DNA of 32,905 nucleotides from Paracoccus haematequi (GTDB lineage: Bacteria; Pseudomonadota; Alphaproteobacteria; Rhodobacterales; Rhodobacteraceae). The notes beneath the pieces were generated by a model that was given only the letters and a program-made list of their open reading frames with translations, did no database searches and was not told the origin of the DNA. Shown here in pieces: positions 225-32,016 of the stretch. Each line of letters begins with the position of its first letter. The first letter of the stretch is position 1. The stretch covers positions 1 through 32,905 of the forward strand of contig CALRPK020000001.1 of assembly GCA_943370015.1 (NCBI GenBank), written 5' to 3'. The translations under genes and the position numbers were made by a program.

Positions 225-229
225 TGGAC

Positions 230-273
230 CGGACCAAATTTTTTGCGATTGCGGACCACATTATTTGAGATTG
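230..273 (+). repeat. Tandem 22-bp putative transposase-binding sites at prophage end (R1/R2-like)
   Basis: cggaccaaattttttgcgattg (230-251) and cggaccacattatttgagattg (252-273), 19/22 identical, starting 5 bp inside a terminal TG. Confidence 0.8.
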
Positions 274-274
274 G

Positions 275-12805: not shown

Positions 12806-12977
12806 CGGTTCCACCTTGGTTGCGGGCAGCGATTTTGGGCAGCACTTGGTGTGCTGAAACCCTCTTGCCACGGGGTGTCCGGTCGGGCCAGATAGCGGGG
12901 TTGGTGGCTCTCCGTATCTGGAATTTCAAAGGCTTAGTGCAATTTCGAGACCGGCTCCTGTCCTGTAATGACAGGGC
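12806..12977. promoter_or_regulatory. Divergent late promoter region with three inverted repeats
   Basis: Intergenic between divergent protease and portal genes; IRs cagcac/gtgctg (12840-12856), ccagata/tatctgg (12888-12921) and cctgtc/gacagg (12957-12975). Confidence 0.6.
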
Positions 12978-14267
12978 ATGACCAGACCCGATGATAACCC
13001 CGCCGAACTGACCGAAACCGCCTCCGGCTATTCCGAGGTGCTGCGCTTCAATGTCGGCGCGATGCTCGATATGCGGGACGCGACCGGGGTCGATGGCGAA
13101 TACGTCTGGCCCCATCCGCCGCTCCATCTGGCAGCGCTGGCACGGGCATCGGCGGAACATGGTCGCGCGATCACCCTGAAGGCCGAAGGGGCCTTTGGGC
13201 GGGGCGTGATCGGGACCGGTGCGGACGACCTGGACAAGGTGTGTGATGGCGGTGCAGTCGAACTGTTCACCGGTCTCGGGATCGACCTTGAAACCTACGG
13301 CAACGCCTTCATCCAGATCGTCAGCGGATCGGGCGGGCGGATCGCGCAGCTGCGCCGTCTGCCCGCCATTACCATGTCGCGCTATCGGGCGGGCTTCCTC
13401 CAACGCATTCCCTTGCCCTCTGGTGACCGACGCGTCGTGACCTTCGGGCCGGACGAAATCCTGCACCTGCGTGACCACAGTGTCACGGGACGCCAGTACG
13501 GCGAGCCGTCGTGGATCGGCGCGGAAGGGATGCTGCAACTGACGCAGGCGGCGGTCCAGTTCAACGCGGCCTTCTTCACCAATGGCGCGATGCCCGAATA
13601 TGCCGTGGTCTTTGAAGGATCGACGCCCAGCGAAGCGCAGCGCAATGACGTTCGCAACTTCTTCCTGCGCGAATACGCGGGCGTCGGGAACGCGCACCGC
13701 ACCATGGTCCTGCATGTCAACGAAGGCACCAAGGTCACCTTTGAACGCCTGACCGCCGAAATGAAGGATGGTGACTTCCTGAAGCTTCTGGATGCGGCAC
13801 GTGACCGGATCGTGACAGCGCATGGCGTGCCGCCGCGCATGCTGGGCATCATGTCCGCAGGGCAGCTTGGCGGCGGCGGCGAAATCACCGGGCAGATGTT
13901 CCTTTTCGAACTTCTGACGCTCGCCCCGCGCCGGGATCGAATGATGGGCCGTATCAAGCCGATCCTGACAAGGCTTGGTCTGACGGCGGTGCCCCCGGAG
14001 GAAGCCGACGGCGGGCCGGGACGCGTGGCGTTCCGCCCCTTGGACCTGACCCCTCCCGACCAGGACATCCCGCCGCTGGCCGAATTGGTCAACGCAGGCA
14101 TCCTGACGGCGGAAGAGGCCTACGCTGTCCTGCCCCTCTCCGCACGTCCGGAACAAGGGCGCAAGTCGCCTGCACCGCAACCGGGTCAACAGTCTGGCCA
14201 AACAACTCCCACCCAGAAGTCGGGCGGCGGTTTGGATGCGCTTGCCGCCCTTTTGGCGCGGATTTGA
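12978..14267 (+). CDS. Portal protein (PBSX / P2 gpQ-like)
   Basis: DLETYGNAFIQ...EILHLR...YGEP...FFTNGAMP...KDGDFL...AHGVPP.MLGI. Confidence 0.9.
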   Translation: MTRPDDNPAELTETASGYSEVLRFNVGAMLDMRDATGVDGEYVWPHPPLHLAALARASAEHGRAITLKAEGAFGRGVIGTGADDLDKVCDGGAVELFTGLGIDLETYGNAFIQIVSGSGGRIAQLRRLPAITMSRYRAGFLQRIPLPSGDRRVVTFGPDEILHLRDHSVTGRQYGEPSWIGAEGMLQLTQAAVQFNAAFFTNGAMPEYAVVFEGSTPSEAQRNDVRNFFLREYAGVGNAHRTMVLHVNEGTKVTFERLTAEMKDGDFLKLLDAARDRIVTAHGVPPRMLGIMSAGQLGGGGEITGQMFLFELLTLAPRRDRMMGRIKPILTRLGLTAVPPEEADGGPGRVAFRPLDLTPPDQDIPPLAELVNAGILTAEEAYAVLPLSARPEQGRKSPAPQPGQQSGQTTPTQKSGGGLDALAALLARI

Positions 14268-14275
14268 GGGGCGGC

Positions 14276-16009
14276 ATGGTCAGAAAAACACCCACCCCGA
14301 AAAACGGCCCAGAAACGGCCTCTGCGTCCGTAGCCACCCTAGCTCCGCAAAATGGGCGAACCCCCTCTGAAACGTTGCGCTACGGCGTCTCCGAGGCCAT
14401 TGGCAAGCCTGACGCGCGGAGGGGCCGTCCGTCCACCTTCGGAGAAGCCGAGCGCAACGCGGCATTCCTTGCCTACGTCGCGGGCGACAGCACAACGGAA
14501 ATCGCGGCTCGTATCGGGTGCAGCGCGCGGACGGTGCGCGACTGGGTGCGCGACGGCGGGTGGAAACGCCAGCTCCAATCCCAGCGCGAAACCGTCCAGG
14601 GGCTTGAGGCGCAAATCCTGCGCCTATCGCGCAAGACCGACCTGACGACGGCACAGGCGCAGCGCTTAGCGATGCTGACCAAGTCGCTGGACCGACTGAA
14701 GAAATCGGTTCCCGCCCCGAAACCGCGCCCCATCGTCCAGAACGCCGTCAGCGCCGAGGTGTTGGCCCGTGTGCTGGACCCTTCCTATGGCCTTTACGCC
14801 TATCAGATCGATTTCCTGCAATCTGAGGATCGCTTCCGGATCGTGCTGAAGGCGCGGCAGATCGGCTTTTCCTATGTCGTGGGCTTGGCCGTCCTTTTGG
14901 GGGCGCTGGCGGGCCGTCCGCAGATCGTGGTGTCCGCGTCGGAACGTCAGGCCCAGATCATCCTGAACTATGCCCGGCTGCATGCAGGGCGTCTGGATAT
15001 CCTGATAGAGGGCGACAAAAAGGACGAACTGACGGTCGCAGGCACGCGGATCATTGCGGTCAGCACCAACTTCCGCACCGCGCAGGGCTGGCCGGGGGAT
15101 GTCTGGTTCGACGAATTCGCATGGGTTCGTCAGCAGAAGCTGCTCTTCGCGGCTCTTGTCCCGTCCATCACCGCTATGGATGGTCGCGTCACCATTTTCT
15201 CGACACCCTTCACGCCGGGGTCGTTGTTTTGGGAGATCGCCACCAACCACAGGGGGCGTTACAACCAATGGCGGCGCTGGACGATCACGCTTCAGGACGC
15301 GATTGACCAGGGCATGCCGCTGGAAGGTGGCATTGATGTGCTGCGCGACCTGTTCGACAGCGAAAGCTGGGCGATGTTCTATCAGTGCCAATGGGCCGAG
15401 GATGGCACTGCGCTGCTCTCTTGGTCGTTGCTGCATGAACTGACGCATGAGGCCATCGATCCGGCCCGCTTTGGGCGACTTCATGGCGGCGTCGATGTGG
15501 GTCGCATCAACGACCGCACGGCCATTGCCCTGATTGGTCAGGAAGTGCGCGACGGCGCGTGGCAAGATCGCTTCGCCCTTGTCCATCACGAAAGCCACAA
15601 GGGCGTGACCTTTGACGGTCAGCGCCAAGCCATCCTCGACGTTGATGGCCGCTATCACATCGACCACTGGGGCATCGACCGTACCGGCATCGGCATGCAG
15701 TTGGCGGAAGAGCTTTGTGCAAAGTGGCCGGAGCGGTTCGAAGGCGTGTGGTTCAGCGCACAGCGCAAATCGCGGCTGGCCTTGAACCTTCTGAAACTGG
15801 CCGAAGAAAAGCGCCTGATCCTGCCCAACGATCCGGACGTGCTGGCCCAACTTCACGCCGTCAAAAAGCAGGTCAGCGGCCAGACCATCAAATACGACGC
15901 CGACAGGACCGAGGACGGCCACGGCGACATGTTCTGGGCTGTTGCCATCGCAGCAGAGGGGCGCGCCGGCGGCGCGACGGGCGGCGGTGTGGGGGTGTGG
16001 GTGTTCTGA
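14276..16009 (+). CDS. Terminase large subunit with N-terminal HTH (P2 gpP-like)
   Basis: HTH (TTEIAARIGCSARTVRDW); Walker A LKARQIGFS; Walker B VWFDEFAW; nuclease GVDVGR...D and HGDMFWA. Confidence 0.93.
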   Translation: MVRKTPTPKNGPETASASVATLAPQNGRTPSETLRYGVSEAIGKPDARRGRPSTFGEAERNAAFLAYVAGDSTTEIAARIGCSARTVRDWVRDGGWKRQLQSQRETVQGLEAQILRLSRKTDLTTAQAQRLAMLTKSLDRLKKSVPAPKPRPIVQNAVSAEVLARVLDPSYGLYAYQIDFLQSEDRFRIVLKARQIGFSYVVGLAVLLGALAGRPQIVVSASERQAQIILNYARLHAGRLDILIEGDKKDELTVAGTRIIAVSTNFRTAQGWPGDVWFDEFAWVRQQKLLFAALVPSITAMDGRVTIFSTPFTPGSLFWEIATNHRGRYNQWRRWTITLQDAIDQGMPLEGGIDVLRDLFDSESWAMFYQCQWAEDGTALLSWSLLHELTHEAIDPARFGRLHGGVDVGRINDRTAIALIGQEVRDGAWQDRFALVHHESHKGVTFDGQRQAILDVDGRYHIDHWGIDRTGIGMQLAEELCAKWPERFEGVWFSAQRKSRLALNLLKLAEEKRLILPNDPDVLAQLHAVKKQVSGQTIKYDADRTEDGHGDMFWAVAIAAEGRAGGATGGGVGVWVF

Positions 16010-17622: not shown

Positions 17623-17826
17623 ATGCAATTTGAACTCAAAGACCTGATCGCATGGGCCACCCTTCTAGTCGGAGCCTTGGCGCAGTTCTTCCACCTGAAG
17701 GGCCGGATCATGGTGCTGGAAAGCCGTCAGGACGACTTCAAGGAAACCATCAAAGAGAACTTCGACAAGCTGGGCCGTCAGTTGGAGCAGATCGACTCGA
17801 AGCTCGACAAGAAAGCGGACAAGTAA
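17623..17826 (+). CDS. Small membrane-anchored coiled-coil protein (lysis region)
   Basis: MQFELKDLIAWATLLVGALAQFF...QIDSKLDKKADK; RBS AAGGA; stop overlaps the next ATG. Confidence 0.75.
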   Translation: MQFELKDLIAWATLLVGALAQFFHLKGRIMVLESRQDDFKETIKENFDKLGRQLEQIDSKLDKKADK

Positions 17827-19978
17827 TGCCAACCTGTCACATTACCGGTTCTGTTCTCGATATTGGGCTTGATGTCGGACAGGCTGCATTCCTCTGTGTC
17901 ACCCCGGTATCCCCGCACCTTCGCCGCGAAAACGGGGCCACGCTCGTCCTTCCCTCTGAAAGACGCATTCCCGTCAACGCCGATGGCAGCGTCGCATTCA
18001 ACATCGTGCCCGGTCCGTACTGGATAATTGGCCGCACCGCTTCGGGCATGCCGATCGGGTTGCGATGTGCGGTTGTCGTTCCGAATGAGGCGATGGCAGG
18101 CTTGGGCACGCTGGTGGACCTTCCCTTGCCCCCCACGCTTGACGCCGCAATGCAAGCCGTGCTGGACGCCCGCGCTTGGGCGGAAGGAACCTTGCCTGGC
18201 GGGCCGGGTACCAAGTCATCCCGCGAATACGCCGAAAGCATTCCCCTGATAGAAGGCCCTCCGGGGCCGTCTGCCTATGCCGTGGCCTTGGCAAACGGTT
18301 TTGCCGGAACGGAAGAAGAATGGCTCGCGTCGCTCATCGGGCCGCCCGGATCATCGGACTGGTCAGACATCGAGAACCTGCCAAGCGCGTTTCCGCCCGA
18401 GGCACATGATCATGTCATCGCAGACATTGCAGGTCTCGTCGATGAACTGGCGGGCAAGCAACCTGCTGGCACCTACGCATCCGGCGCACAGGGCGCGCTT
18501 GCAGACACGGCATTGCAGCCGGGGGCGATCATCCCATGGGGCGACCTCTCCGGCGTCCCGATGGACTTCCCCGCCGCTCAGCACGTGCATCCCATCGCGG
18601 ACATCACGGGCCTCGCCGCAACTCTGGACGGAAAAGCGGACGCAGGGCACCTCCATGTCATCGCCCATGTGACCGGATTACAGGCCGCGCTCGATGGCAA
18701 GCAGCCTGCGGGGTCTTACGCCCCCTTGGTGCATACTCACCCCATCAGCGACGTAACCGGCCTCCAAGCCGCACTGGACGGCAAGGCTCCTGCCGTCCAC
18801 ACCCACACCGCCGCGCAGATCAGCGACAGCACGGCGGCGGGGAGGACGCTTCTGACGGCGGCGGACGCGGCGGCGCAACGACTGGCTCTTTCGGTCGAAA
18901 GCTCTGCCCAGCTTGACACCCGCGACGCGGCAAACCGAAACCGCGCGAACCACACGGGGACGCAAGCCATCGCGACCGTGACTGGATTGCAGGCCGCACT
19001 GGACGGCAAGGCCCCGACGGCGGCGGGTATCCCCGCTGGCGGCGCAGTTGGCCAAGTTCTGGTCAAGACAGGTGCGCCCGACTATGCCGCCGCATGGCAA
19101 GCCTTGGCCCGCGATGCCGCGCCGAACGTGCAGGAATTCACCACACCCGGCACCACGGCATGGATCAAACCGACCGGACCGAATGGCGAGACGCCGCGGC
19201 TGATCCATGTGGTGCTGTATGGCGGCGGCGGCGGTGGCGCGTCAGGCGCGGTGCGCGCCGATAGCACCACAACCGTCGTCGGCGGCTCCGGCGGCGGATG
19301 CGGCGGTCGCAGCGAGTTCTTCATCGATCCATCATCGCTTGGCCTGACTGTGAGCGTAATCGTGGGGGCCGGTGGCGCGGGAGGGGCTGCGCGGGCCGGG
19401 GCGGGGGCAGTCAATGCCGGTTCAAATGGTGGCGCATCTGCCTTTGGCTCAATGACCATCCAAAGTGGTCGCGGTGGCACCGCAGGCGGCGGCGGCACGG
19501 GCGGCATGTCGCTCGCGGAAGCTACATTTGGCGGCACCATCCTCACGGGCGACGGTCGGGCCGGGGCAACATCGGCAGGCAACCTCAATGGCAACTCTGG
19601 GGGCATGAGGCCAGGGGCGGGGCGGGCGGATTGGGCGCACTTGCCAACAGCACAGCATCCGGCGGCTTCGGCGGTGGCCGGGGTGGCTTCCTTCTGAGTG
19701 GCAGCACAAACCCAAACGATGGGGGCGGTGGCGCAGCTGCCAACGTCGCATCGGGGACGGCAGCGCCGACGGCTTCGGCATCGGCGTTCCCTTCGATTTA
19801 CGGCGGCGATGGGGGCGGATCGGGCGGCATGACAGCCGCAGGCGTCGGCCTCGGGGGCGGCAACGGCGGCTTTCCCGGTGGTGGCGGTGGTGGCGGCGGC
19901 GGGGCAACGGCCCCCAACCTCAGCGGCAAAGGCGGCGATGGCGGCAACGGCTACGTCCGCGTGACCACATTCTTCTGA
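17826..19978 (+). pseudogene. Second fibre protein (HxH repeats, glycine-rich C-terminal domain), split by a 1-nt frameshift near 19599-19622
   Basis: ORF 17826-19697 loses its Gly-rich character after GGMRPGAG, while ORF 19298-19978 continues GGAGGLGALAN...GGNGYVRVTTFF. Confidence 0.78.
18403..19015 (+). repeat. Coding repeats HxH(x)IxDVTGLQAALDGK
   Basis: About five degenerate copies in the second fibre, e.g. HVHPIADITGLAATLDGK and HTHPISDVTGLQAALDGK. Confidence 0.75.
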
Positions 19979-20428: not shown

Positions 20429-20886
20429 CGGTCTACCTCGCCTCCTATCGGGGCGGCGCGCGCGGCCTGTCACGCATCGTCGGGGCCGTCATCCGTTGGG
20501 TCACCCGTTCGGAGTGGTCGCATTGCGAGATCGCCATCGGCAATCCGCTGGAAGGCCCGGCAATCTGCGTCTCGGCCTCCGGTATGGACGGCGGTGTGCG
20601 CGCCAAAGAGATGCAGCTCGATCCGTCGCGCTGGACCGTCACGCCGCTGCCCCATGTAAGGGTCAATCAGGTGTACACGGCCATCAATGCCTTTGCCGGG
20701 GCACCATACGACTGGGCCGGGGTTGCCCGCTTCGCCTTGCCTTGGGCCGTGAGGTCCGAGCACCCCAACCGGTGGTTCTGTTCCGAATTCTGCGCCCATG
20801 TCATCGGGCTGGAGGAGCCGTGGCGCTTCTCCCCCGCCGACCTGAAGATTGTCGCCTCGAAGATTGAGGAGGCCGGTGGGGTCTGA
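20425..20886 (+). CDS. Permuted papain-like (NlpC/P60, YiiX-like) enzyme
   Basis: IRWVTRSEWSHCE...DGGVR...G.PYDW.G...WFCSE...SPADL, with His before Cys. Confidence 0.78.
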   Translation: MTVYLASYRGGARGLSRIVGAVIRWVTRSEWSHCEIAIGNPLEGPAICVSASGMDGGVRAKEMQLDPSRWTVTPLPHVRVNQVYTAINAFAGAPYDWAGVARFALPWAVRSEHPNRWFCSEFCAHVIGLEEPWRFSPADLKIVASKIEEAGGV

Positions 20887-20998
20887 CCTCCCACCGACAC
20901 GGGGTAACGCTTGCAGGCAACCCCCGCCGACCAAGGGACAATTATGGCCGCTCCTCCCCTCGCGAGGGAGCGGACAGTTAGGAACGATTCGGGAACAA

Positions 20999-21808
20999 AT
21001 GTCAAAACCTGACTACACGCCTGTTGCGCCAATCTCTCCGGTAGCCCCTTGGCTGGGTGGAAAGCGCAACCTCGCAAAGCGCATCTGTGCGTTGATCGAC
21101 GCCATGCCCTGTACCACCTATGTGGAACCCTTCGTCGGCATGGGAGGGATTTTCCTGCGCCGCACAACCCGCCCGAAATGCGAGGTCATCAACGACAAAG
21201 GGCGCGACATCGCAAACCTCTTCCGCATCCTCCAGCGCCACTACCCGCAGTTTCTGGAAGTGCTGCGCTTCCAACTGACGACGCGCGCGGAATTCAACCG
21301 TCTGGTCGATACCAACCCCGACACGCTCACCGACCTCGAAAGGGCCGCGCGCTTCCTGTTCCTCCAAAGAACAGCCTTCGGCGGCAAGGTGAGCGGGCGC
21401 AACTTCGGCGTCGCGCGGAACCGACCAGCACGGTTCAACCTGACCACCTTGGAGCCAATGCTCGAAGACCTGCATGCCCGCCTGTCCGGCGTCACCATCG
21501 AATGCCTGGACTGGGCGAACCTCATCCCGCGCTATGACGGGGCTGACACGCTGTTCTACCTCGATCCGCCTTACTGGGGCTGCGAAACCGACTACGGCAA
21601 GGCCATGTTCAGCCGCGACGACTTCGCCCGTCTGGCGGAGGTGCTGGCAGGCATCAAAGGCCGGTTCATCTTGTCGCTGAACGATGCGCCCGAGGTGCGC
21701 GCTACCTTCGCGGCGTTCAACATCGCCTCCGTAGCCACGACCTACAGCGTCGGCGGCGGCAGTGAGGCGCGCGCAGAGGTGCTGATTTCCAACATGGACC
21801 TGCCCTGA
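20999..21808 (+). CDS. DNA adenine methyltransferase (D12/Dam family)
   Basis: PWLGGK, YVEPFVGMG, VIND and FYLDPPY motifs; ATG at 20999. Confidence 0.93.
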   Translation: MSKPDYTPVAPISPVAPWLGGKRNLAKRICALIDAMPCTTYVEPFVGMGGIFLRRTTRPKCEVINDKGRDIANLFRILQRHYPQFLEVLRFQLTTRAEFNRLVDTNPDTLTDLERAARFLFLQRTAFGGKVSGRNFGVARNRPARFNLTTLEPMLEDLHARLSGVTIECLDWANLIPRYDGADTLFYLDPPYWGCETDYGKAMFSRDDFARLAEVLAGIKGRFILSLNDAPEVRATFAAFNIASVATTYSVGGGSEARAEVLISNMDLP

Positions 21809-21810
21809 AC

Positions 21811-21844
21811 GAAAAAGGGCCACCAGAACGGTGGCCCTTTCCCC
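21811..21844. terminator. Bidirectional rho-independent terminator
   Basis: aaagggccacc-agaac-ggtggcccttt, an 11-bp perfect stem with an A-run on the left, between convergent genes. Confidence 0.85.
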
Positions 21845-21862
21845 CAGTTGGATGCCGGATCG

Positions 21863-22333
21863 TCAGATCAGCAAGCTGTATCCCTGCGACACGATCACGA
21901 AGGCGATGGACACCAGCGCTAGCCCGAATGCCACCATCACCAACCGTGAGTTCTGTTTCATCTGCCGGTCGTTGAACCGCGAATGCTTGTCGTTGAACCC
22001 ACCCAGTTGGGTCTTGACCTGATCGATATCCACGCCTGACGCGATGTCTTCGGCCAAGTCCTCAAACAGTGCCCCCGGAACGTAGAAGTCTTGCGGGCGC
22101 GCGGCCAGCCCTGCCAAGAAGGCCGCAATAGCCAGACCAGCGGCACCGATCAGCAAAGTGCCGTCAACTGTGTCACCTTGCGCCAGCGCGGTCAGGATCG
22201 ACGCTGCCGCGATCAACATGCCTGCAACGCCAATGGCCCGCTGATCGGCTGCGATTGCTGCCTCGAATTGCGCCTGAAGGCGAAGCTCAACCAGCCGGTA
22301 TGCCTCATCAATCACTGTGCTATCTTTCGTCAT
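21863..22333 (-). CDS. Three-TM membrane protein (moron; Pycsar-effector-like topology)
   Basis: ADQRA + TM1, TM2 ending ..ARP, acidic loop, then N...K + C-terminal TM3. Confidence 0.7.
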   Translation of the reverse strand: MTKDSTVIDEAYRLVELRLQAQFEAAIAADQRAIGVAGMLIAAASILTALAQGDTVDGTLLIGAAGLAIAAFLAGLAARPQDFYVPGALFEDLAEDIASGVDIDQVKTQLGGFNDKHSRFNDRQMKQNSRLVMVAFGLALVSIAFVIVSQGYSLLI

Positions 22334-22361
22334 CGACTCACCCTTGTACGGAGTTACCTTG

Positions 22362-22520
22362 ATGGCGCGTGAACCAGAGCCGATTGAACGTGGCCCCAGC
22401 CCCGGCGGGGATCACCCCAGACCGACGCCGACTATACCGCCCATTCCGCGCGGTCGGGCGCGCGCCGTGCGCGAACCCCAACCGGTGCGCAAGGGCGAAG
22501 ACCCGCCGCCGCTCACGTGA
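22362..22520 (+). CDS. Small proline-rich hypothetical peptide
   Basis: GGAG RBS about 8 nt upstream; MAREPEPIERGPSPGGDHPRPTPTIPPIPRG...; fills the gap between two minus-strand genes. Confidence 0.45.
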   Translation: MAREPEPIERGPSPGGDHPRPTPTIPPIPRGRARAVREPQPVRKGEDPPPLT

Positions 22521-22899
22521 CGGCCACGGTATCCGCCGCCTCATCCAGCGGCCACCACCACCAGTGCGACGGCGGGATTTCGGGCACCTTGCCCGCATCG
22601 TCCACCACAAAGCCAGCCAGTTCGCTGGCCTTGTCGGCGCGGTAGTGAAGCGGTGCGAAATCGGCGTTGAAGGTGGCAGGCCGCGCCCGCCAATAGGCAT
22701 CGACCTTTTGAAGCTCGGCGCGCTGATCGGCATCCAGATCGGCGCGCACGAATTCATAGGCGGACCGCAGGTGCAGGCACTCATCCCGGTCCATGTCAAA
22801 GTCGGGATCGCCAATCGTGTCGTAACACCCCAGCATGCCGACCAACAGGCTTTCGCCCCGCAGATCAGGGGCGGTCATGCCATTCACCATGTAAGCCAT
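22513..22899 (-). CDS. Putative immunity protein for the MuF C-terminal domain
   Basis: 128 aa, acidic, ending PPSHWWWWPL; start overlaps the 3' end of muF; RBS GAGGTG. Confidence 0.6.
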   Translation of the reverse strand: MAYMVNGMTAPDLRGESLLVGMLGCYDTIGDPDFDMDRDECLHLRSAYEFVRADLDADQRAELQKVDAYWRARPATFNADFAPLHYRADKASELAGFVVDDAGKVPEIPPSHWWWWPLDEAADTVAVT

Positions 22900-24251
22900 T
22901 TCATGACACCTCGTCCCGGCTGTTTCTTTGCGGCGACCTCATCGGTCTGGTTCTCGATCTTGCGCCGGAAGTGATGGCTGACGATCTTGTTTTCCTCAAG
23001 ATCGACCGCCGTGACGACGAAGCCATCCTCAATAGCGCCGGTCGATCGTGTCCGTTGTCGTTCCTTGGCAAACACCGCTTGTAACTTGCCCCGGCGCACG
23101 GACAGGTAAACGTCCCGACCGCCTGACCGGATCAGATCGACCGCCGATTGATTGTAATCCGCCTGCGATGCAACCCCAATGGCAACTTTGTGCTTACCGA
23201 AATGACCGCGCGCGACCTTATCGCTGGGCCAGTTCGCGGACTTTGCCTGCGCGACAACCTTGCCGACCTCGCTGCGCGACAGCGCTTCCCGGTCCAGTGC
23301 CGCCCGCCGCCACCGGCCCACATCCCCCGGCGCGTCCCCGAAATAGGCCACCGTGATCGTGCGACAGTTACCATGGTGATAGGGCGGCATGCCGATGCCT
23401 TGCAGGTCGCGCGTTGGCGTCTGGCTCAGGTCTTGATCATCACCGTGGAACGGCCAAGCGGCAAAGGCTGCGACCCGGTTGCCCCGGCTGGAGGCCTCCA
23501 TCCACGTCTCGGCCTGCGACCGCAGGCTTTCGACCGTCAGCACCCGCCCATGCAGATGGCGGCACACCGTGGTGGTCCGATCATCCAGCAACGCCTTGAT
23601 CTTCACCTGACGGATGCCTGACTTCTCATAGCCCGAAACCCGGCCGATTTCGCGGGTGCGGGTGGCCAAACTGTTCGCCACCGACCGCCAGTGATGCAGG
23701 CTGTTTTCCGACACGCCCGCAAAGTCTTCGGCCAGCCGCCGCGCAAGGCTTTCGCGCGTCAGGCCGGTGGTGAAGTATTCGGTCAGCAGGCCCTTGATCT
23801 TGTCGCGGGGGCCGGTGTCCCACAGATCGCCAACCCAGAACTGGTTGACGCGGGACAGCACCTCAAGCGCATCCTGATCGGCGCGCATGAAGGACAGGTT
23901 TGCGCCAACTGCGGTGCCCACCTCGGCCAGTCCAAGGCGATAGAGGCTGTCCGACAAGTTCACCACCGGCTCACGCATCGTGGCGGCAAGGGCTTCTGCC
24001 CCCACCTCACGTTCCAGCGCGCGCAGGATCGTTTCGCCATCGGCAGCGGTGAACTTGCCGTCACCCAGATCCCGCAACCGGTCCAATGCGACTGCAATGC
24101 CCCGCCGCGTCGCCTCCGTAAAGGCCCCGGTCAGGGCCTTCTGCAATTGTTCAACCAAGGCCTCAAAGCCCTTGGCATCCCGGATGATCACCCCGCGCGC
24201 GATCCGCGTCATGACCGCCGCGCGCAGGGCCTCTTCGGCCAGTTCAATCAT
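22884..24251 (-). CDS. MuF (Mu gpF / SPP1 gp7) head morphogenesis protein with C-terminal toxin-like extension
   Basis: ALLDDRTTTVCRHLHG and PPYHHGNCRT MuF motifs, then about 155 extra aa with HFGKH...SQADY...A; ATG at 24251 coupled to the upstream stop. Confidence 0.82.
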   Translation of the reverse strand: MIELAEEALRAAVMTRIARGVIIRDAKGFEALVEQLQKALTGAFTEATRRGIAVALDRLRDLGDGKFTAADGETILRALEREVGAEALAATMREPVVNLSDSLYRLGLAEVGTAVGANLSFMRADQDALEVLSRVNQFWVGDLWDTGPRDKIKGLLTEYFTTGLTRESLARRLAEDFAGVSENSLHHWRSVANSLATRTREIGRVSGYEKSGIRQVKIKALLDDRTTTVCRHLHGRVLTVESLRSQAETWMEASSRGNRVAAFAAWPFHGDDQDLSQTPTRDLQGIGMPPYHHGNCRTITVAYFGDAPGDVGRWRRAALDREALSRSEVGKVVAQAKSANWPSDKVARGHFGKHKVAIGVASQADYNQSAVDLIRSGGRDVYLSVRRGKLQAVFAKERQRTRSTGAIEDGFVVTAVDLEENKIVSHHFRRKIENQTDEVAAKKQPGRGVMKWLTW

Positions 24252-25038
24252 GCTGCACCGCCAAGGAAGCCCACTTCGGCAGATCGGACAGCCGCACCGG
24301 GAGTTCGTCAGGTATTTCCCCCGCTTCCCAACCATCCCTTCCGCGATGGCTGATCTGCATGGCCTCATCGCGAGAATATACACCTGCGGATCGAAGATCA
24401 TTCGTGTATCCAGCCGATCCCGGACGCCACCAGCAACCATGTTCATGGCTCCAGATTACATATCCTTCGTCCCGCTCGGATTTCAAATGCTCCCGCGCCT
24501 CCCCCTCTTTCGGGTCCGGCCAATTCCGCGCCATGTTCTCGGCCAACTTCACGCGGATAGCATTCGCCAAGGCCTCGTCGCTGATCCCGGCACGGCGCTG
24601 CATGTCCCAAAGCAGCATCCAGCAATCTGCATGCTCGATGACATCGTGGGGCGCTTCAGCCACCTCCAGCGCCTCTTTTGCCAGATGCTTGGCAGGGCCG
24701 ATGGCTGATACCGCTCCGAACTGTGCTTGCGACCAAGCCGCATGCGCGGCACGCAATCCGTCCAACCGGAACAGGGCCGTCACCTGCGACATCGCGGTGT
24801 CATAGCCTTGGTTGCAGCCGACGATGAAGGCACGCTCGCCGGTCAGCTTTTCGATGACGTCCGCCGCTTCCTCCATCAGGGACTGCCAAGGACTATCCGT
24901 CTTCACGCGCAGACGCTCAACCAGATGGCCGAACTCTGCCACGCATTGCACAGGGCGCAGAACGGCCTCTTCCAGCGCGCTCTTCAGCTCGTCTTTCGTG
25001 GAACTGAACGTGTAGCTCGCCACCAGCTTCTTTGACAT
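24244..25038 (-). CDS. DUF550 (MazG-like dATP/dGTP pyrophosphohydrolase) domain fusion protein
   Basis: HAAWSQAQFG..SAIGPAKHLAKEALE...EHAD...LLWD..RRAGI...KL..N.AR.WP; extra C-terminal WWRPGSAGYT.DL..AGVY module. Confidence 0.8.
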   Translation of the reverse strand: MSKKLVASYTFSSTKDELKSALEEAVLRPVQCVAEFGHLVERLRVKTDSPWQSLMEEAADVIEKLTGERAFIVGCNQGYDTAMSQVTALFRLDGLRAAHAAWSQAQFGAVSAIGPAKHLAKEALEVAEAPHDVIEHADCWMLLWDMQRRAGISDEALANAIRVKLAENMARNWPDPKEGEAREHLKSERDEGYVIWSHEHGCWWRPGSAGYTNDLRSAGVYSRDEAMQISHRGRDGWEAGEIPDELPVRLSDLPKWASLAVQHD

Positions 25039-25060
25039 CTTCGCCCTCTTTCCCATTGCT

Positions 25061-25324
25061 TCAGGTCTTTCCCTTTTTCCGGCGCATCCGGCGGATGCAG
25101 CGGTTCATGATCAGCGTCCGTTCGCCGACCATCTCGTCCAGGCTGCGCCTGCGCCGCGTGATCCGCAGATGCAGCACGGCCAAGCGGCGCAATTCGTCTT
25201 CGCTGGCATGGGCCAACCACGCCGCCCGCAGGCCGAAGGGTTCGATGACGGGACCGCCGTTGTGGCCTATCCCGCGCCGTGCAGCGCGACCCACTGCACA
25301 GCCCTTTGCGCCATTGCCCTTCAA
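25061..25324 (-). CDS. Hypothetical basic phage protein
   Basis: GIGHNGGP motif; TTG start overlapping the upstream stop. Confidence 0.6.
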   Translation of the reverse strand: MKGNGAKGCAVGRAARRGIGHNGGPVIEPFGLRAAWLAHASEDELRRLAVLHLRITRRRRSLDEMVGERTLIMNRCIRRMRRKKGKT

Positions 25325-25530
25325 ACCTTTGTTTCCTTGCTATTTTCTGCAAAAAGGTCGTTCTGTGCTATTTTCTTTCCGGCCTTGGCGCGCACCTGGT
25401 GATCATCCTTTTCTTCCCAAGTGCGCCAGCGATGGTCACAGATCGGGCAGCGGCGATACCGCTGCACCGTGGTGCCGTAATCGTTGGTGCCGTTGACCCG
25501 GCCGCGACCGCCACAGTTAGGACACTGCAT
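25321..25530 (-). CDS. Zinc-ribbon regulator (Ogr/Delta- or NrdR-N-like)
   Basis: MQCPNCG...RYRRCPICDHRWRTWE; immediately after gemA. Confidence 0.72.
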   Translation of the reverse strand: MQCPNCGGRGRVNGTNDYGTTVQRYRRCPICDHRWRTWEEKDDHQVRAKAGKKIAQNDLFAENSKETKV

Positions 25531-25996
25531 CCTGCCCCCCTTCGGCGCGCTTGCTTTCCAGCCACTTCCGCAGCCCGGTGATCACGGCGCTCGCCTGTTC
25601 GCGGGTGATGAAGCGGGCGCTGGTGACTTTGGCGGTGCGCTGGACAAAGCCTTGCAGCCGCGCATCTTCCAGCCCGTCCTTCCAGCCCATCTGACGCGCG
25701 AGGGACGCGATATGCGCCCATTGCTCGGATGTGGGCCTGCCTTCGCTGCGCCCGCCCTGACCACGTTCCGTGATCAGCCCGTCGCGGCGCAGACGCTTGA
25801 TCAGGTCGATGCGCTGATCCATCGACAAGGCCGATGCCGACCGGCACCCGGTCAGACGATGCAGCCAGTCTTCATAATCTGCGCGGCCCGTGCCGGTCTT
25901 CGACACATCGCCGAACAGCGATTTCGCTGCGACATGGATCAACGCCAGATCGGCGTTGCGCTTTTGGGTTCCGGCGGGGCTGGGACGGCTGGCCAT
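25517..25996 (-). CDS. gemA: GemA / Mu gp16-like protein (DUF1018)
   Basis: LALIHVAAKSL...Y..WL..LTG..SAS.L...L.GFVQR...ASAVITGLRKW. Confidence 0.8.
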   Translation of the reverse strand: MASRPSPAGTQKRNADLALIHVAAKSLFGDVSKTGTGRADYEDWLHRLTGCRSASALSMDQRIDLIKRLRRDGLITERGQGGRSEGRPTSEQWAHIASLARQMGWKDGLEDARLQGFVQRTAKVTSARFITREQASAVITGLRKWLESKRAEGGQDAVS

Positions 25997-25998
25997 GA

Positions 25999-26268
25999 TC
26001 ACGCCCCCAGATACCCGGCGCGCGACAGCGGCTCGGGCAACGCAAGATGCAGGTGATAGGCTTCGACCAGATGCTGTTCGCGCGCCTCTTGCGGCAACGA
26101 GGACAGCGCGATCTCCAACCCGTCCACGCTTTCGCGCCAGATCACCCGGCGTTCCTTCCAGAAGGTGCGGATGCCGCGCTTTGCCTCCAACACAATGCGG
26201 CGCAGGTGCTTTTCCGACAGCCTGCACAGCCGCGCCCCGTCTGACAGGGCCCACCACTCGACGGTCAT
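25999..26268 (-). CDS. Stand-alone Mu-type winged-HTH DNA-binding protein
   Basis: EWWALSDGARLCRLSEKHLRR...W...RE...GLEIALSSLPQEAR parallels the transposase N-terminus. Confidence 0.62.
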   Translation of the reverse strand: MTVEWWALSDGARLCRLSEKHLRRIVLEAKRGIRTFWKERRVIWRESVDGLEIALSSLPQEAREQHLVEAYHLHLALPEPLSRAGYLGA

Positions 26269-26561
26269 TGCCCCACCGCCTGCGCCTGAAGCTGCGCCGT
26301 CAGGTCTGCGACCACGCGTTCCAGACGCTTGACCCTGGCCCTTTCCCTTTCAAGATCGTCCTTCAGCTCTTCGATCTCGTCCTCAAGATCGGTCACGTCC
26401 TCTTCGGTGGCCCATTCCCGCCCGAAATCTTCGTGATCGTCCGGCCAATACATCCCGGCCACTTCGCGTTCCACGAACGGCTTGGCAAAGGCAATATGAC
26501 CGACGATCTCGCCGTTCTGCATCAACTCGCCTGTGGTCCTGATTTCCAATTCCGCCATCAC
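26265..26561 (-). CDS. Hypothetical acidic coiled-coil protein
   Basis: Heptad-rich C-terminus; stop overlaps the next start. Confidence 0.7.
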   Translation of the reverse strand: MMAELEIRTTGELMQNGEIVGHIAFAKPFVEREVAGMYWPDDHEDFGREWATEEDVTDLEDEIEELKDDLERERARVKRLERVVADLTAQLQAQAVGQ

Positions 26562-26603
26562 AATGCCCTCTGAATGACGTGGTGCCGATTTACCGATTGA
26601 CTG

Positions 26604-26628
26604 GCCCCGCCACCCGTGGCGGCGGGGC
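26604..26628. other. GC-rich hairpin after the DUF3164 gene
   Basis: gccccgcc-N9-ggcggggc, an 8-bp perfect stem with no U-tract. Confidence 0.5.
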
Positions 26629-26636
26629 GCTTGCTG

Positions 26637-27786: not shown

Positions 27787-28560
27787 TCACGCCCCCGCCA
27801 TCCAAGCGGCGGCGGTCTGCACCACGGCCTCATCCAGCTTTTCGATGCCTTCGGCCCGCATCAGACGGTCACAAGCGTCGCCCAGTTCCAGTGCCGTGCG
27901 CCAGACGCCGCCAGTCAACCGGCGGAACAGCGCGGCGGTCTTGCGGCTGACCTTGCCAAAGCGGGGTTGGATGCAATAGGCGACCAACTCATCGTCACTG
28001 GCCATCGGCCCCAGCACGATCCGCTTGGCCCCGATCCTCTGGCGGAACTGCGCCAGATAGGTGCCAACACCAGCGGTCGAAATCGTCCGCGCCAGAATGT
28101 CGGTCCCGACGATCACAAGCCCACATTGCGCCAGATCGGACAGGCTGCGCAGCTTCTCCAACTGCGCCCACCGCAGATGGTTGGCCTCATCCACGATGAT
28201 CAGCCGCCCCGGCAAGGCGGTCAGCATGCGACCAAACAGCGTGTTGCCCGTGCCGGTCAGGTCAATGTTGATCCCGCGCGCCACAGCAGATTTGGCGATC
28301 AACAGCATCAGGTCTTTGTCGCTGATCCGCGTCCAGCATTCGATCCGGATCGCCCCCATCTCATCGGCCAGCCACGTGGTCAGCCGCGACTTGCCCGTGC
28401 CCGGTTGCCCGGTGATCTGCCCGATCCGGCAATGGTCCCGCGCGGTCAACACCGTGCGGCACATCTCCAGCGCCTGATCCGCCGCCACGGTGCGGACAAA
28501 GGCGATATCGCCCGCACCCGCGACCACATCCAAAGGCGATGCCTCATCGATCTCTGTCAT
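27787..28560 (-). CDS. Transposition AAA+ ATPase (MuB-like)
   Basis: Walker A GQPGTGKS and Walker B LIIVDEANHL; coupled to the transposase stop. Confidence 0.92.
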   Translation of the reverse strand: MTEIDEASPLDVVAGAGDIAFVRTVAADQALEMCRTVLTARDHCRIGQITGQPGTGKSRLTTWLADEMGAIRIECWTRISDKDLMLLIAKSAVARGINIDLTGTGNTLFGRMLTALPGRLIIVDEANHLRWAQLEKLRSLSDLAQCGLVIVGTDILARTISTAGVGTYLAQFRQRIGAKRIVLGPMASDDELVAYCIQPRFGKVSRKTAALFRRLTGGVWRTALELGDACDRLMRAEGIEKLDEAVVQTAAAWMAGA

Positions 28561-30821
28561 TCCTCGTCATCCTCATAAGCAACCGCTGCCAAAGCGGCAT
28601 TCGGGCCAACCTTGAACTGGGTGATCTCGCGGCGCGGGGTCTGGGCGTTGCCCGAAAGGCGGTCGCGCGCCTCCGCGTCGGCCTTGGACATGCGCGACAA
28701 CATGTCGGTGTTCACCAGCGTGCCCACCGGTGCGTCTGGCGTGTCCAGAAGGTGGCTGTTGTGGCGCTCTGTCTCTGCCACAAGGTCAAGCAGCGCGCAG
28801 TGCTTCCGCATCTCTGCGACCTCGCGCAGCACATACTTGCGCCTCCGCCCAAGCTCCTCGGCCCCAGCGCGTTCCAACACGCCATAGGCCCGTTCCACGG
28901 TCGCCTCGCAAAGGAAGGTTTCGCCGTCGAACACGAACACCACATCCGGCTTCCACGCCGGGATACGGACGGTGACCGGGCTGTGCCGCAATTCCAACGC
29001 CTCGTGGTAGTAATGCACCGTGTCGCCATGCCTGTTCTTGATGCGGAAGCGGCCTGCACTCGGGGTCCGTGTGACCTCTTCCGAAAAGGCCAGACGCAAC
29101 ACGGCTGGATCACCAAGCACCGTCTTGCCCCAGCCGCCCGCGATGAAATCTGCCAACGCCTCGTTGGGGCTGCGCCCGCCAAGTTTCCCGTCCTGAGCGC
29201 GCTTGTGGTAGAATTGAAGCATCGTGCTGGCATCGCGCAGAAAGTCCTCTGCCGTGCCCTCGAAAGGCTTCGCTGGACGCCCCTTTGCGTGGGTCTTCTT
29301 CCGCATCCGGTCACCGGATGTCCAACCGGAGATCACCGCGAACTGCACACGTTCCAGATTGCCGAAAGTGCCTTCGATCCCCGGTTTACCCTTCGCGTTA
29401 TAGGCCAGTGATCGAACCACAGCCTCGCGCGCACTTCGCACCCGCGCGTCAACCTCGCCGTTCTCGCCAAGCTGGTGCAGCGCAAAGGCACCACTCGTCA
29501 GCTTCGACAAATGCGTGAAGCCGTTGACCATCGCGGCCCAGCCGTATTCAGACCCGTTGTCCAGATACAGCAGACGCGGCAGACCCCAGTCCGTCACCAT
29601 GGCCTCAAAGGCCATCGCGACATGCTCACGCTTAACGCCTTCACCCGGCTCAAGGATGACAAAGGTCATATGGATTTCATTGGTGGCGATGTCGAACCAA
29701 CTGATCGCCCGCGCATAGACCTCCGTCCCGTCGCGCCGGTTCATCAACACGTCCACCGGGTGGACGTCGCCCACCACGATGTCGCGCGGCAGGTAGCCGG
29801 AATAGTCGCGCCGGATGTGCGGCATGAACTCGTCCTGCCACCGCGCATTATCCTTGTCCTTGACCGCCAAAAGGCCGAACCGCCGCTCCTCTTCCACCCG
29901 GCGGGTGTTGACGAAGCACACTTCCAGCTTCGATCCGGCCCCCGAATTGCCGGTGATGCGCCCCTGCGGCAGCCGGTCAAAGGCCTTCACACCAAGCGCC
30001 GCACTCAACTCGACCAGCCATGACGTGGCCTTCTCGGACACCGCATACTTGCCACGCTCACCGCTGGCCCACAGATTGCGGATGTGCGCCTGAAGCTGAT
30101 CGGCAATCCGTGCGTGATCCGCCTGGGGGATGCGCCCCTCAAAGAAGCTGTCCCACGTCCGCGTCACGGTGACGTCGCGCGTGCCCTTGCGGGCGTTTTC
30201 CTTGGGCATAAGACCTGCCAGACCGGCCTGCTTGGCCTCATAGGCCTGCACCCACCGGCAGATCGTCGCGCGGCTGACAAGCCCGCGCCGACCATTCGGC
30301 AACAGCCGCTCAAGTGCAGCCAGTTCCTGCACTTTGACTTCGCGCGCCTTCGACCGCTTGGGCAACGCCAGCACGGGCCGGATCACATCATGCCGCCAGC
30401 GGGCGACGTCCAAACGGGCATCGTGCCGCTTGTCCAGCACCAGTGCCGCCGGGGTGACCACCGCCAGCGCCGTGGCCTCGGGCCGCGCATTCACGTCCAC
30501 GCCCCGCGCCAGATACCACGCCTCGCGCAGATCGGCGGGCAGGCTGTCCACATGGACTTGCAGCACCTTGCCGCCCTGTCCGACATGGGATGCCACCTCA
30601 CGCACGATCAGGTCACAGCCCCGCCAGCGGCGGGCATCAACGGCACGGCGGGCAACCCGATCCGCGATCCCCGCAAGGGATGCCAGACCCGCCGTCGAGA
30701 GCCATTTTTCGTCGGTCCTTAGGGGGTCCTTAGTCAGGTCCTTAGTCGGGCAGTTCGCCTCGACTAAGGACCCTGCAAAGCCCCCCTCAACCACCTCGAA
30801 TTTCCGCGCTACCGAACCCAT
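28557..30821 (-). CDS. DDE transposase (MuA-like)
   Basis: 754 aa; N-terminal Mu-type HTH (HVDSLP), second HTH (SRATICRW), catalytic GDVHPVD / YLDNGSEY / KPGIEGTF. Confidence 0.93.
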   Translation of the reverse strand: MGSVARKFEVVEGGFAGSLVEANCPTKDLTKDPLRTDEKWLSTAGLASLAGIADRVARRAVDARRWRGCDLIVREVASHVGQGGKVLQVHVDSLPADLREAWYLARGVDVNARPEATALAVVTPAALVLDKRHDARLDVARWRHDVIRPVLALPKRSKAREVKVQELAALERLLPNGRRGLVSRATICRWVQAYEAKQAGLAGLMPKENARKGTRDVTVTRTWDSFFEGRIPQADHARIADQLQAHIRNLWASGERGKYAVSEKATSWLVELSAALGVKAFDRLPQGRITGNSGAGSKLEVCFVNTRRVEEERRFGLLAVKDKDNARWQDEFMPHIRRDYSGYLPRDIVVGDVHPVDVLMNRRDGTEVYARAISWFDIATNEIHMTFVILEPGEGVKREHVAMAFEAMVTDWGLPRLLYLDNGSEYGWAAMVNGFTHLSKLTSGAFALHQLGENGEVDARVRSAREAVVRSLAYNAKGKPGIEGTFGNLERVQFAVISGWTSGDRMRKKTHAKGRPAKPFEGTAEDFLRDASTMLQFYHKRAQDGKLGGRSPNEALADFIAGGWGKTVLGDPAVLRLAFSEEVTRTPSAGRFRIKNRHGDTVHYYHEALELRHSPVTVRIPAWKPDVVFVFDGETFLCEATVERAYGVLERAGAEELGRRRKYVLREVAEMRKHCALLDLVAETERHNSHLLDTPDAPVGTLVNTDMLSRMSKADAEARDRLSGNAQTPRREITQFKVGPNAALAAVAYEDDEE
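30714..30772. repeat. Four-copy GGTCCTTAG(TC) cluster in the 5' end of the transposase gene
   Basis: Direct copies at 30714, 30725 and 30737; inverted copy cgactaaggacc at 30761-30772. Confidence 0.8.
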
Positions 30822-31741: not shown

Positions 31742-32016
31742 GCCACCTGTTGCAGCTTGGCGGCTTCGGCCAGCATCCGGCGGCGATAGGCCTCAGTGAC
31801 CACCTCCCGGCCCGCATCCGCGATCATCCGGTCGATGATCTCCCGACCCCGATTGCCGCCCGAAAAGCCATAGGTTGCCGCCTTTGCCGACGAAGCCCGG
31901 ACCCCATTGGTCCGGCACCATTCGGCAAACGTGGTCCCGCGCGCCCGCAAAGACCCCACAAGCACCTCGTGTAGGACTTTCCCCGGCTGGACCACGACTT
32001 TTGAGATTGATGACAT
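31738..32016 (-). CDS. Ner/Cro-like early regulator
   Basis: LRARGTTFAEWCRTNGV...A HTH; divergent from the repressor and first gene of the early operon. Confidence 0.78.
   Translation of the reverse strand: MSSISKVVVQPGKVLHEVLVGSLRARGTTFAEWCRTNGVRASSAKAATYGFSGGNRGREIIDRMIADAGREVVTEAYRRRMLAEAAKLQQVA

What the first reader, a model, noticed from the sequence alone, without database searches (positions are those of the whole stretch)
22513..24251. MuF polymorphic toxin and candidate immunity gene relocated into the early operon
Seen: a MuF domain (DDRT..C, PPYHHGNCR) followed by an extension of about 155 aa, basic and containing HFGKH-x8-DY-x3-A and a terminal IVSHH strand, overlapped by a small acidic gene ending PPSHWWWW. 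Known: MuF proteins with C-terminal toxin domains and downstream immunity genes form a phage polymorphic toxin family, normally encoded next to the portal. HFxKH..Y..A resembles BECR-fold RNase/tRNase toxins. Unusual here: the pair is about 8 kb from the portal, on the opposite strand, and translationally coupled to the end of the early operon. Inference: a virion-delivered or early-expressed RNase for host shut-off or for killing non-lysogen competitors.
Basis: partly seen in the sequence, partly recalled or inferred. Interest (0 to 1): 0.8.

Follow-up and report, generated by a model that had tools for sequence, protein, structure and literature searches.

The report
Phage head-protein toxin with antidote gene
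A transposable prophage carries a head-protein (MuF) gene whose tail is predicted to be an RNA-cutting toxin, overlapped by a small gene predicted to plug its active site; this is a new toxin-antidote family of a known kind, and its position far from the other head genes is the normal layout of this whole prophage group rather than a one-off move.

Summary
The genes are real: a 455-aa MuF protein (22884-24251, minus) with a basic 154-aa extension, overlapped by 16 nt by an acidic 128-aa gene. The extension models confidently (pLDDT 91.6); its ten best structural matches are all BECR-type ribonuclease toxins, led by a CdiA toxin and colicin D (Z 7.4, 7.1: middling), and it keeps the helix His plus terminal-strand Ser/Thr of that group. 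The small gene follows the extension in 38 of 38 related loci and has no real match in the other 50; the predicted complex scores 0.88 against 0.00 for controls, with an acidic loop over the putative active site. Relatives carry short, metallopeptidase-like or other tails, so the locus is polymorphic. 'Relocated' is overstated: 39 of 88 related loci share the layout, toxin or not; it marks a Mu-like prophage group with a P2-type late region, probably from inversion of the portal-terminase block. Early transcription, toxicity and virion loading are untested. Distant relatives fuse toxin and an antidote-like tail in one frame with an internal ribosome-binding site. Three look-ups found no earlier scan record of it. 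Verdict: new toxin/immunity families within the known MuF polymorphic toxin kind.

The parts
22884..24251 (-). muF toxin gene, 455 aa
23349..24251 (-). MuF (phage head morphogenesis) domain, residues 1-301; also found alone as ~305-aa proteins in relatives
22887..23348 (-). C-terminal extension, residues 302-455: predicted colicin D-like BECR ribonuclease; candidate catalytic residues H350, K353, H354, S425, H427
22513..22899 (-). candidate immunity gene, 128 aa, acidic, all-helical, no library family; acidic loop D33-E40 predicted over the toxin active site
22897..22912 (-). Shine-Dalgarno-like site and start codon of the immunity gene inside the end of muF; explains the conserved G-x-x-K-W at the toxin's C-terminus
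24244..25056 (-). dATP/dGTP pyrophosphohydrolase gene (accessory; its stop overlaps the muF start by 8 nt)
25321..25530 (-). zinc-ribbon gene (NrdR-N/Ogr-like, weak) that stays linked upstream of muF across layouts
25517..25996 (-). GemA-like gene
27787..30821 (-). MuA transposase (28557-30821) and MuB (27787-28560)
12978..16009 (+). portal and terminase large subunit, transcribed toward muF from the opposite side
12918..12940 (-). conserved motif in the divergent portal/protease gap (candidate late-promoter element); no second copy upstream of muF

Best explanation
[quoted passage not shown] Shown: the two genes, their overlap, their strict co-occurrence, the variable C-terminus and the family-wide layout. 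Predicted: the fold, the His/Ser active site and the complex. Inferred: (1) in the producer the immunity protein, started from its own ribosome-binding site inside muF, keeps the toxin silent; (2) MuF binds the portal and is packaged, as SPP1 gp7 is, shedding the antidote; (3) after injection the domain cuts tRNA or another translation RNA; (4) because the pair lies at the end of the transposition/GemA transcription unit, a cell that lets the phage genome be expressed would make antidote soon, and a lysogen may already hold it, whereas an unprotected cell is slowed or killed. The odd position is best read as a fixed trait of the prophage group, likely from an old inversion of the portal-terminase-lysis block rather than a move of muF.
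For: Fold: AlphaFold2 pLDDT 91.6, two helices then four strands; ten top VIA matches among 48,161 chains are all RNase toxins (8ey4 CdiA Z 7.4, rmsd 2.8, 83 aligned; colicin D 5znm Z 7.1, rmsd 3.1, 87 aligned; 1tfk 6.2; 3ao9 6.1), first unrelated row Z 4.2. Residues: H354 in 123 of 127 and Ser/Thr at 425 in 122 of 122 aligned rows (135 rows in the set), the His-in-helix plus C-terminal Thr/Ser pattern given for colicin D-like BECR RNases (PMC5512222 passage; PMC9990079 passage). Partner: 38 of 88 loci have this extension and all 38 have the small gene; among the other 50 only L028 gives a 16-position weak match (E 0.004). Complex: 0.88 vs best control 0.00 (mark reached by 116 of 157 solved and 2 of 215 mismatched pairs; runs agree in at least 98% of contacts, partner pLDDT at least 90); D37 contacts H350, K353, H354, S425, H427. 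Polymorphism: short, metallopeptidase-like, LRAT-like and other tails on the same MuF; 12 changes of tail class on a 65-row quick tree; in 20 alphaproteobacterial-clade rows N-terminal identity 0.66 vs extension 0.42, rank correlation 0.13. Short MuFs persist in the same slot (12 of 39 same-layout loci), so the head function is apparently kept there. Packaging of MuF proteins: PMC5576092.
Against: Best Z is under 8, which the tool says may reflect a common arrangement; Foldseek found nothing at E<=0.001 in PDB or BFVD and no Pfam toxin family matches. The complex was folded with my own alignments, so the calibration holds only roughly. 3 of 57 close homologues have Lys at H354 and 12 of 57 lack H350. 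Immunity identity tracks the MuF domain at least as well as the toxin domain (partial correlation toxin-immunity 0.20, p 0.07, n 30; 0.31, p 0.02, n 20; MuF-immunity 0.75 and 0.35; kin not independent), so co-swapping of the cassette is only weakly shown. No cultured phage carries a close MuF (1 weak hit in 50,697 records), so there is no virion or transcript evidence. The same pair sits behind terL in Synergistota, so the early position is not required for it.
Confidence: 0.55

Rival explanations
1. The pair is an intracellular toxin-antitoxin module that acts in the lysogen or induced cell (prophage stabilisation, or abortive defence against other phages whose heads recruit or cleave MuF) and the toxin is never delivered.
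For: Tight coupling with an internal ribosome-binding site; position next to GemA, and the Mu gem region is reported to be active in lysogens (PMC3820752 passage); in-frame toxin-antidote fusions in distant relatives.
Against: The toxin is found only on MuF carriers among the 30 longer proteins and interchanges with metallopeptidase-like tails typical of virion-delivered effectors; no PADLOC match; short MuFs are kept in the same slot.
Confidence: 0.2
2. The RNase serves the phage's own infection (host shut-off, cutting defence RNAs, or biasing lysis versus lysogeny), with the partner acting as a timer, rather than being a weapon against competitors.
For: Proposed for MuF-fused phage BECR domains (PMC5512222 passage) and for low-toxicity MuFs (PMC5576092); rapid divergence of the domain fits an arms race with host targets.
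Against: The nearest structures are antibacterial tRNases with immunity proteins; a dedicated active-site inhibitor is universal here.
Confidence: 0.17
3. The extension is a decayed or non-catalytic RNA/DNA-binding domain and the small protein a chaperone or assembly factor.
For: Phage Mu's own MuF is said to carry an inactive BECR domain (PMC5512222 passage); some relatives vary at either His; middling Z.
Against: This copy has all candidate catalytic residues; Ser/Thr425 is invariant; the partner is predicted on exactly those residues and is lost whenever the extension is lost.
Confidence: 0.08

Closest known systems
MuF polymorphic toxins of temperate phages (Jamet et al. 2017, PMC5576092; Apk2 examples PMC12226406; Bxa PMC11699363)
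   Same: N-terminal MuF, variable C-terminal toxin, short and long forms, small downstream ORF under 150 aa, temperate phage.
   Different: Proteobacterial, contractile-tailed, transposable host phage (described toxins are mostly in Firmicutes; 86% of phage MuFs in Siphoviridae); not beside portal/terminase (85-87% of muf genes are); toxin and immunity match no Pfam family; in-frame toxin-antidote fusions in relatives.
Colicin-like BECR RNases: colicin D (5ZNM, 1TFK), CdiA-CT of E. coli O32:H37 (8EY4), NC101 (5I4Q), Kp342 (6CP9)
   Same: Helix-helix-four-strand core, His on the first helix, Ser/Thr on the last strand, basic surface, inhibitor predicted on the active site.
   Different: 4-13% identity; two extra N-terminal helices; two His on the helix and an S-H-H strand; immunity protein has no structural match at Z>=5; substrate unknown.
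Phage BECR (PBECR) and BECR-Tox3/DUF6883 domains fused to MuF (Iyer et al. 2017, PMC5512222; bioRxiv 10.64898/2026.08.28.747851)
   Same: MuF-fused BECR domain with His plus Ser/Thr; BECR-Tox3 also has a downstream immunity gene.
   Different: No member of my alignments matches PBECR, Ntox50, DUF6883 or DUF4926 in Pfam at E<=1; the preprint's own new profiles could not be tested.
Phage Mu genome layout (recalled) and P2-type divergent portal/terminase versus capsid operons (recalled)
   Same: cI divergent from MuA-MuB-GemA; TG end with tandem repeats; P2-like capsid, baseplate, sheath, tube, gpD.
   Different: muF follows a zinc-ribbon gene at the end of the transposition-side unit and faces the portal-terminase-lysis operon head-on.

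Membership tests
MuF polymorphic toxins | N-terminal MuF-superfamily domain | tested here: met
   PHROG 115 E 1.6e-12; PF04233 and TIGR01641 below cut-off for this protein but above it for relatives P0081, P0194
MuF polymorphic toxins | Variable C-terminal extension, with short forms and other toxin domains on the same N-terminus | tested here: met
MuF polymorphic toxins | Small ORF (<150 aa) directly downstream, tied to the extension | tested here: met
   38 of 38 loci with the extension; no real match in 50 without
MuF polymorphic toxins | Encoded by a temperate phage or prophage | tested here: met
   cI, MuA, MuB, full head and tail set, host gene at the end
MuF polymorphic toxins | Usual (85-87%, not obligatory) position next to portal or terminase | tested here: not met
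   8.2 kb away, opposite strand; family-wide
MuF polymorphic toxins | Toxicity neutralised by the partner; presence in virions | not testable with these tools
   only a predicted complex
Colicin-like BECR RNases | pre-alpha + alpha-beta1-4 topology superposable on colicin D | tested here: met
   DSSP H43-57, H62-74, four strands; Z 7.1-7.4, rmsd about 3, 83-87 aligned, under the tool's Z 8 caution line
Colicin-like BECR RNases | His on the first helix and Ser/Thr on the terminal strand | tested here: met
   H354 123 of 127, S/T425 122 of 122; equivalence to colicin D residues is by position in the fold, not by a residue-level superposition
Colicin-like BECR RNases | RNA (tRNA) cleavage | not testable with these tools
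   no assay
Named Pfam BECR families (PBECR1-5, Ntox50, DUF6883, Colicin_D) | Profile match | tested here: not met
   0 of 33 members match at E<=1; Atlas neighbours Ntox50, LPD3, DUF6883 score only 0.76-0.79 (lead only)
BECR-Tox1 to Tox5 (2026 preprint) | Match to the preprint's profiles | not testable with these tools
   profiles are in supplements or an external site; main-text passages only

The most novel reading that the evidence does not exclude
This prophage group turns its head toxin into a checkpoint on infection: the virion injects the RNase, and the antidote sits in the early/GemA unit, so cells that let the genome be expressed (or lysogens) are rescued while cells that destroy the incoming DNA by restriction or CRISPR are poisoned; the in-frame toxin-antidote fusions of Cloacimonadota relatives would be self-inhibited pro-toxins armed by proteolysis in the head.
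Probability: 0.15. Interest if true: 0.78.

Novelty: new variant of a known kind. Interest (0 to 1): 0.45.

Why it matters
Whether MuF toxins are packaged and what they do for the phage is still open in the papers read here. This family offers a natural comparison in one genomic slot (toxin plus antidote, short MuF, metallopeptidase tail, fused form), with members in cultured strains (e.g. Paracoccus sp. p1-h21, Ectothiorhodospira mobilis DSM 237, Tibeticola sediminis DSM 101684 with toxin; Sulfitobacter delicatus DSM 16477 without). It assigns a likely function to one of the proteobacterial MuF extensions of unknown domain, and defines an immunity family with no library or structural match.

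Tried and rejected
Single-protein locus searches found nothing; the alignment searches did. Sequence searches of PDB with the extension, the partner and full-length profiles gave no hit of meaning. Foldseek PDB and BFVD: none at E<=0.001. Partner fold: no chain at Z>=5 of 48,161, which does not show a new fold. Atlas: leads under 0.9 only, run on homologues. No PADLOC hit for 8 proteins. Sigma-70 and terminator scan of 20500-26500: 0 and 0. The gap after the immunity gene folds no better than shuffles (z -0.96). No P2-Ogr-type TGT-N12-ACA site (recalled motif) near the late gap or muF (60). No flanking inverted repeat for a currently invertible portal block among the 25 longest of 861 pairs shown. 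No RNA holder listed. No orphan immunity match in 60 related genomes: the one hit has muF beside it. No second MuF in the own, 58%-complete assembly. The 520-aa longer start was rejected. The C-terminal G-x-x-K-W, although the most invariant motif, was rejected as catalytic: its Trp codon is letters 2-4 of the partner's start in 29 of 35 loci listed. The careful tree did not finish; only the quick tree was used and the direction of the inversion was not tested. Literature searches that found nothing: O32:H37 CdiA, colicin D His611 Ser677, transposable prophage/Roseobacter/P2-like/MuF (97), MuF toxin-immunity fusion; most subscription papers are not in the library.

Full report
Context. The window is contig C1 of a 2.5-Mb, 58%-complete assembly and is almost entirely one prophage. 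PHROG and Pfam scans of 58 chosen ORFs give cI (32054+), MuA, MuB, DUF3164, GemA, a zinc ribbon, a dATP/dGTP pyrophosphohydrolase, muF and the small gene on the minus strand; portal, terminase, neck, endolysin, fibre and Dam methylase on the plus strand; and protease, capsid, baseplate, sheath, tube, tape measure and gpD on the minus strand. It is thus a Mu-type transposable prophage with a P2-type divergent late region (layouts of Mu and P2 recalled). The closest full-length MuF relatives with names are Rhodobacterales.

Observation. The MuF assignment rests on PHROG 115 (E 1.6e-12) and on relatives, since this protein is under the Pfam and NCBIfam cut-offs.

The extension. No Pfam family matches any of 33 aligned extensions in a meaningful way and PDB sequence searches are empty. 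The AlphaFold2 model from that alignment has pLDDT 91.6, with two leading helices, then helix-helix and a four-stranded sheet. Against 48,161 chains the ten best rows are all RNase toxins: CdiA-CT O32:H37 (Z 7.4, rmsd 2.8, 83 aligned), colicin D (7.1, 3.1, 87; 6.2), a sequence-specific ribonuclease domain 3ao9 (6.1), a Salmonella toxin-antitoxin toxin (6.0), three more CdiA toxins, BrnT and MqsR; the first unrelated row has Z 4.2. The tool warns that Z under 8 can be a common arrangement, and Foldseek found nothing significant; the weight lies in the uniform class of the top rows plus the residues. In 135 rows aligned to the profile, H354 is kept in 123 of 127, H350 in 110 of 126, K/R at 353 in 113 of 127 and Ser/Thr at 425 in 122 of 122. 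[quoted passage not shown] A profile search of 1.84 billion representatives gave 85 hits: mostly MuF fusions and fragments, with a weak tail of short stand-alone proteins and one Rhs-like carrier.

The partner. It has 33 homologues in one search, no family, a confident helical model (pLDDT 92.4) and no fold match. In 88 loci collected with the full-length alignment (45 genome, 43 viral; at least four prophages occur in both sets), 38 carry the extension and all 38 carry the partner; of the other 50 only L028 has a 16-position match to the tryptophan motif, in a different small gene behind a different tail (tblastn gave 37 of 37 and 0 of 51). The complex scored 0.88 against a best control of 0.00 (116 of 157 solved and 2 of 215 mismatched pairs reach the mark; runs agree in at least 98% of contacts; partner pLDDT at least 90; own alignments, so calibration is rough). 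Partner residues 33-40, an acidic loop, touch H350, K353, H354, S425, H427 and R429, the active-site occlusion described for BECR CdiA/CdiI pairs (PMC9086364, passages). The only invariant residue of the extension, the C-terminal Trp, is a DNA footprint: its codon lies inside the partner's start, behind a purine-rich site, in 29 of 35 loci listed and in the window.

Polymorphism. The same MuF occurs as a ~305-aa short form, with HExxH metallopeptidase-like tails (L023, L031), an LRAT-like tail (L068) and unassigned tails each followed by its own small gene (L028, L065, L085). On a quick tree of 65 of the 89 N-terminal domains (duplicates, fragments and rows without the motif left out) the tail class changes 12 times; a short-form Roseobacter group is nested among toxin-bearing rows. 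Extensions diverge much faster than the MuF domain and nearly independently of it in the alphaproteobacterial clade (0.42 vs 0.66; rho 0.13). Against a clean cassette model, immunity identity follows the MuF domain as much as the toxin.

Position. Of 88 loci, 39 have muF facing an oppositely oriented terL (22 with this toxin, 12 short, 5 other tails), 8 more have muF behind Mu early genes with no packaging gene adjacent, 11 have an opposed portal, 9 have terL directly upstream, 5 have muF then portal, 1 has the textbook portal then muF, and 15 are uninformative. The layout spans Alpha-, Beta- and Gammaproteobacteria. The zinc-ribbon gene precedes muF in 61 of 88 loci by a loose, uncontrolled pattern, including terL-linked ones, so zinc ribbon-muF behaves as a unit that stayed while the packaging genes changed orientation. 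Flipping the portal-to-Dam block of the window would put the portal start just behind the pair, as in L081-L084; this inversion is an inference and its direction was not tested. A motif conserved in the divergent portal/protease gap (19 sites) occurs once in the window and has no strong copy upstream of muF in relatives, which fits transcription from the GemA side. Jamet et al. report 85-87% of muf genes near portal or terminase, MuF toxins mainly in Firmicutes, many proteobacterial extensions of unknown domain, and 1-2 copies of SPP1 gp7 per capsid (PMC5576092, parts 1-3 of 6); low copy need makes a position outside the strong late operons tolerable (inference). Mu's gem region is reported active in lysogens (PMC3820752, passages; PMC9769972, passages), which would supply antidote to lysogens (inference).

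Fusions. Twelve of the 85 profile hits continue past the toxin into a 105-147-residue tail. A profile of these tails ranks members of the partner family directly below themselves, and profile-profile comparison gives E 8e-4 but only 24% probability (reversed control E 0.12), so homology is likely, not certain. Three of the named clusters are Cloacimonadota. In L091, L092, L093 and L095 there is no stop between MuF and tail, and an AAGGAG site precedes an in-frame ATG at the tail's start; L091 also shows MuA-MuB-muF facing the portal. One search found no paper with this phrase.

Verdict. A real MuF toxin-immunity pair with new toxin and immunity families, in a group-wide non-canonical layout. 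Experimentally studied MuF toxins with immunity exist (PMC12226406, part 1 of 4; PMC11699363, abstract and outline), so the kind is known. Toxicity, substrate, timing and packaging are inferred. Supplements of the 2026 preprint were not seen and may already hold this family. Three look-ups of earlier scan findings returned nothing on it.

Noticed in passing
L091:5620-6987, L092, L093:945-2456, L095; proteins P0146, P0149, P0152, P0153, P0161, P0163, P0164, P0166, P0171, P0172, P0181, P0186: MuF-toxin genes fused in frame to an immunity-like tail, with a strong internal ribosome-binding site and ATG at the tail's start; several from Cloacimonadota.
   Followed up: partly
L101:7239-7562: A stand-alone copy of the immunity-like tail with no toxin match in the 10-kb locus: a possible orphan immunity gene.
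   Followed up: no
window 225-278: Prophage end starting with TG, with tandem ~22-nt repeats (a third copy at 31989-32014), just after a host PhoB/OmpR-like gene end (name recalled from its sequence); in run X1 (possibly the source) the same end at 225 is joined to a different flank, suggesting more than one insertion site.
   Followed up: partly
window 12918-12940 and equivalent gaps in relatives: Conserved 23-nt motif and a second conserved stretch between divergent portal and protease genes: candidate late-activator site; the zinc-ribbon gene 25321-25530 is a candidate activator.
   Followed up: partly
window 21812-21840: G+C hairpin with an A-run on one side between the convergent Dam and 156-aa membrane genes: by eye a terminator for the muF-side transcript; the consensus scan did not call it.
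   Followed up: no
window 26562-26636: The only sizeable gap upstream of the coupled gene chain holds a G+C hairpin without a U-run; possible pause, processing site or internal promoter region.
   Followed up: no
L028, L065, L073: A different tail followed by a different ~95-aa gene that also ends in a W-W-W motif: a second toxin-immunity family in the same slot.
   Followed up: no
L004, L024, L034: Interrupted or truncated muF copies that keep an immunity gene or its pieces.
   Followed up: no
window 1-32905 and relatives: The prophage group itself (Mu transposition genes with a P2-type divergent late region) has no close cultured phage: portal hits are at most 32% identical in the rows shown, none covering 80%.
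   Followed up: partly
window 17652-19697 and 6728-7708: Two tail-fibre-like genes in different operons and on opposite strands.
   Followed up: no
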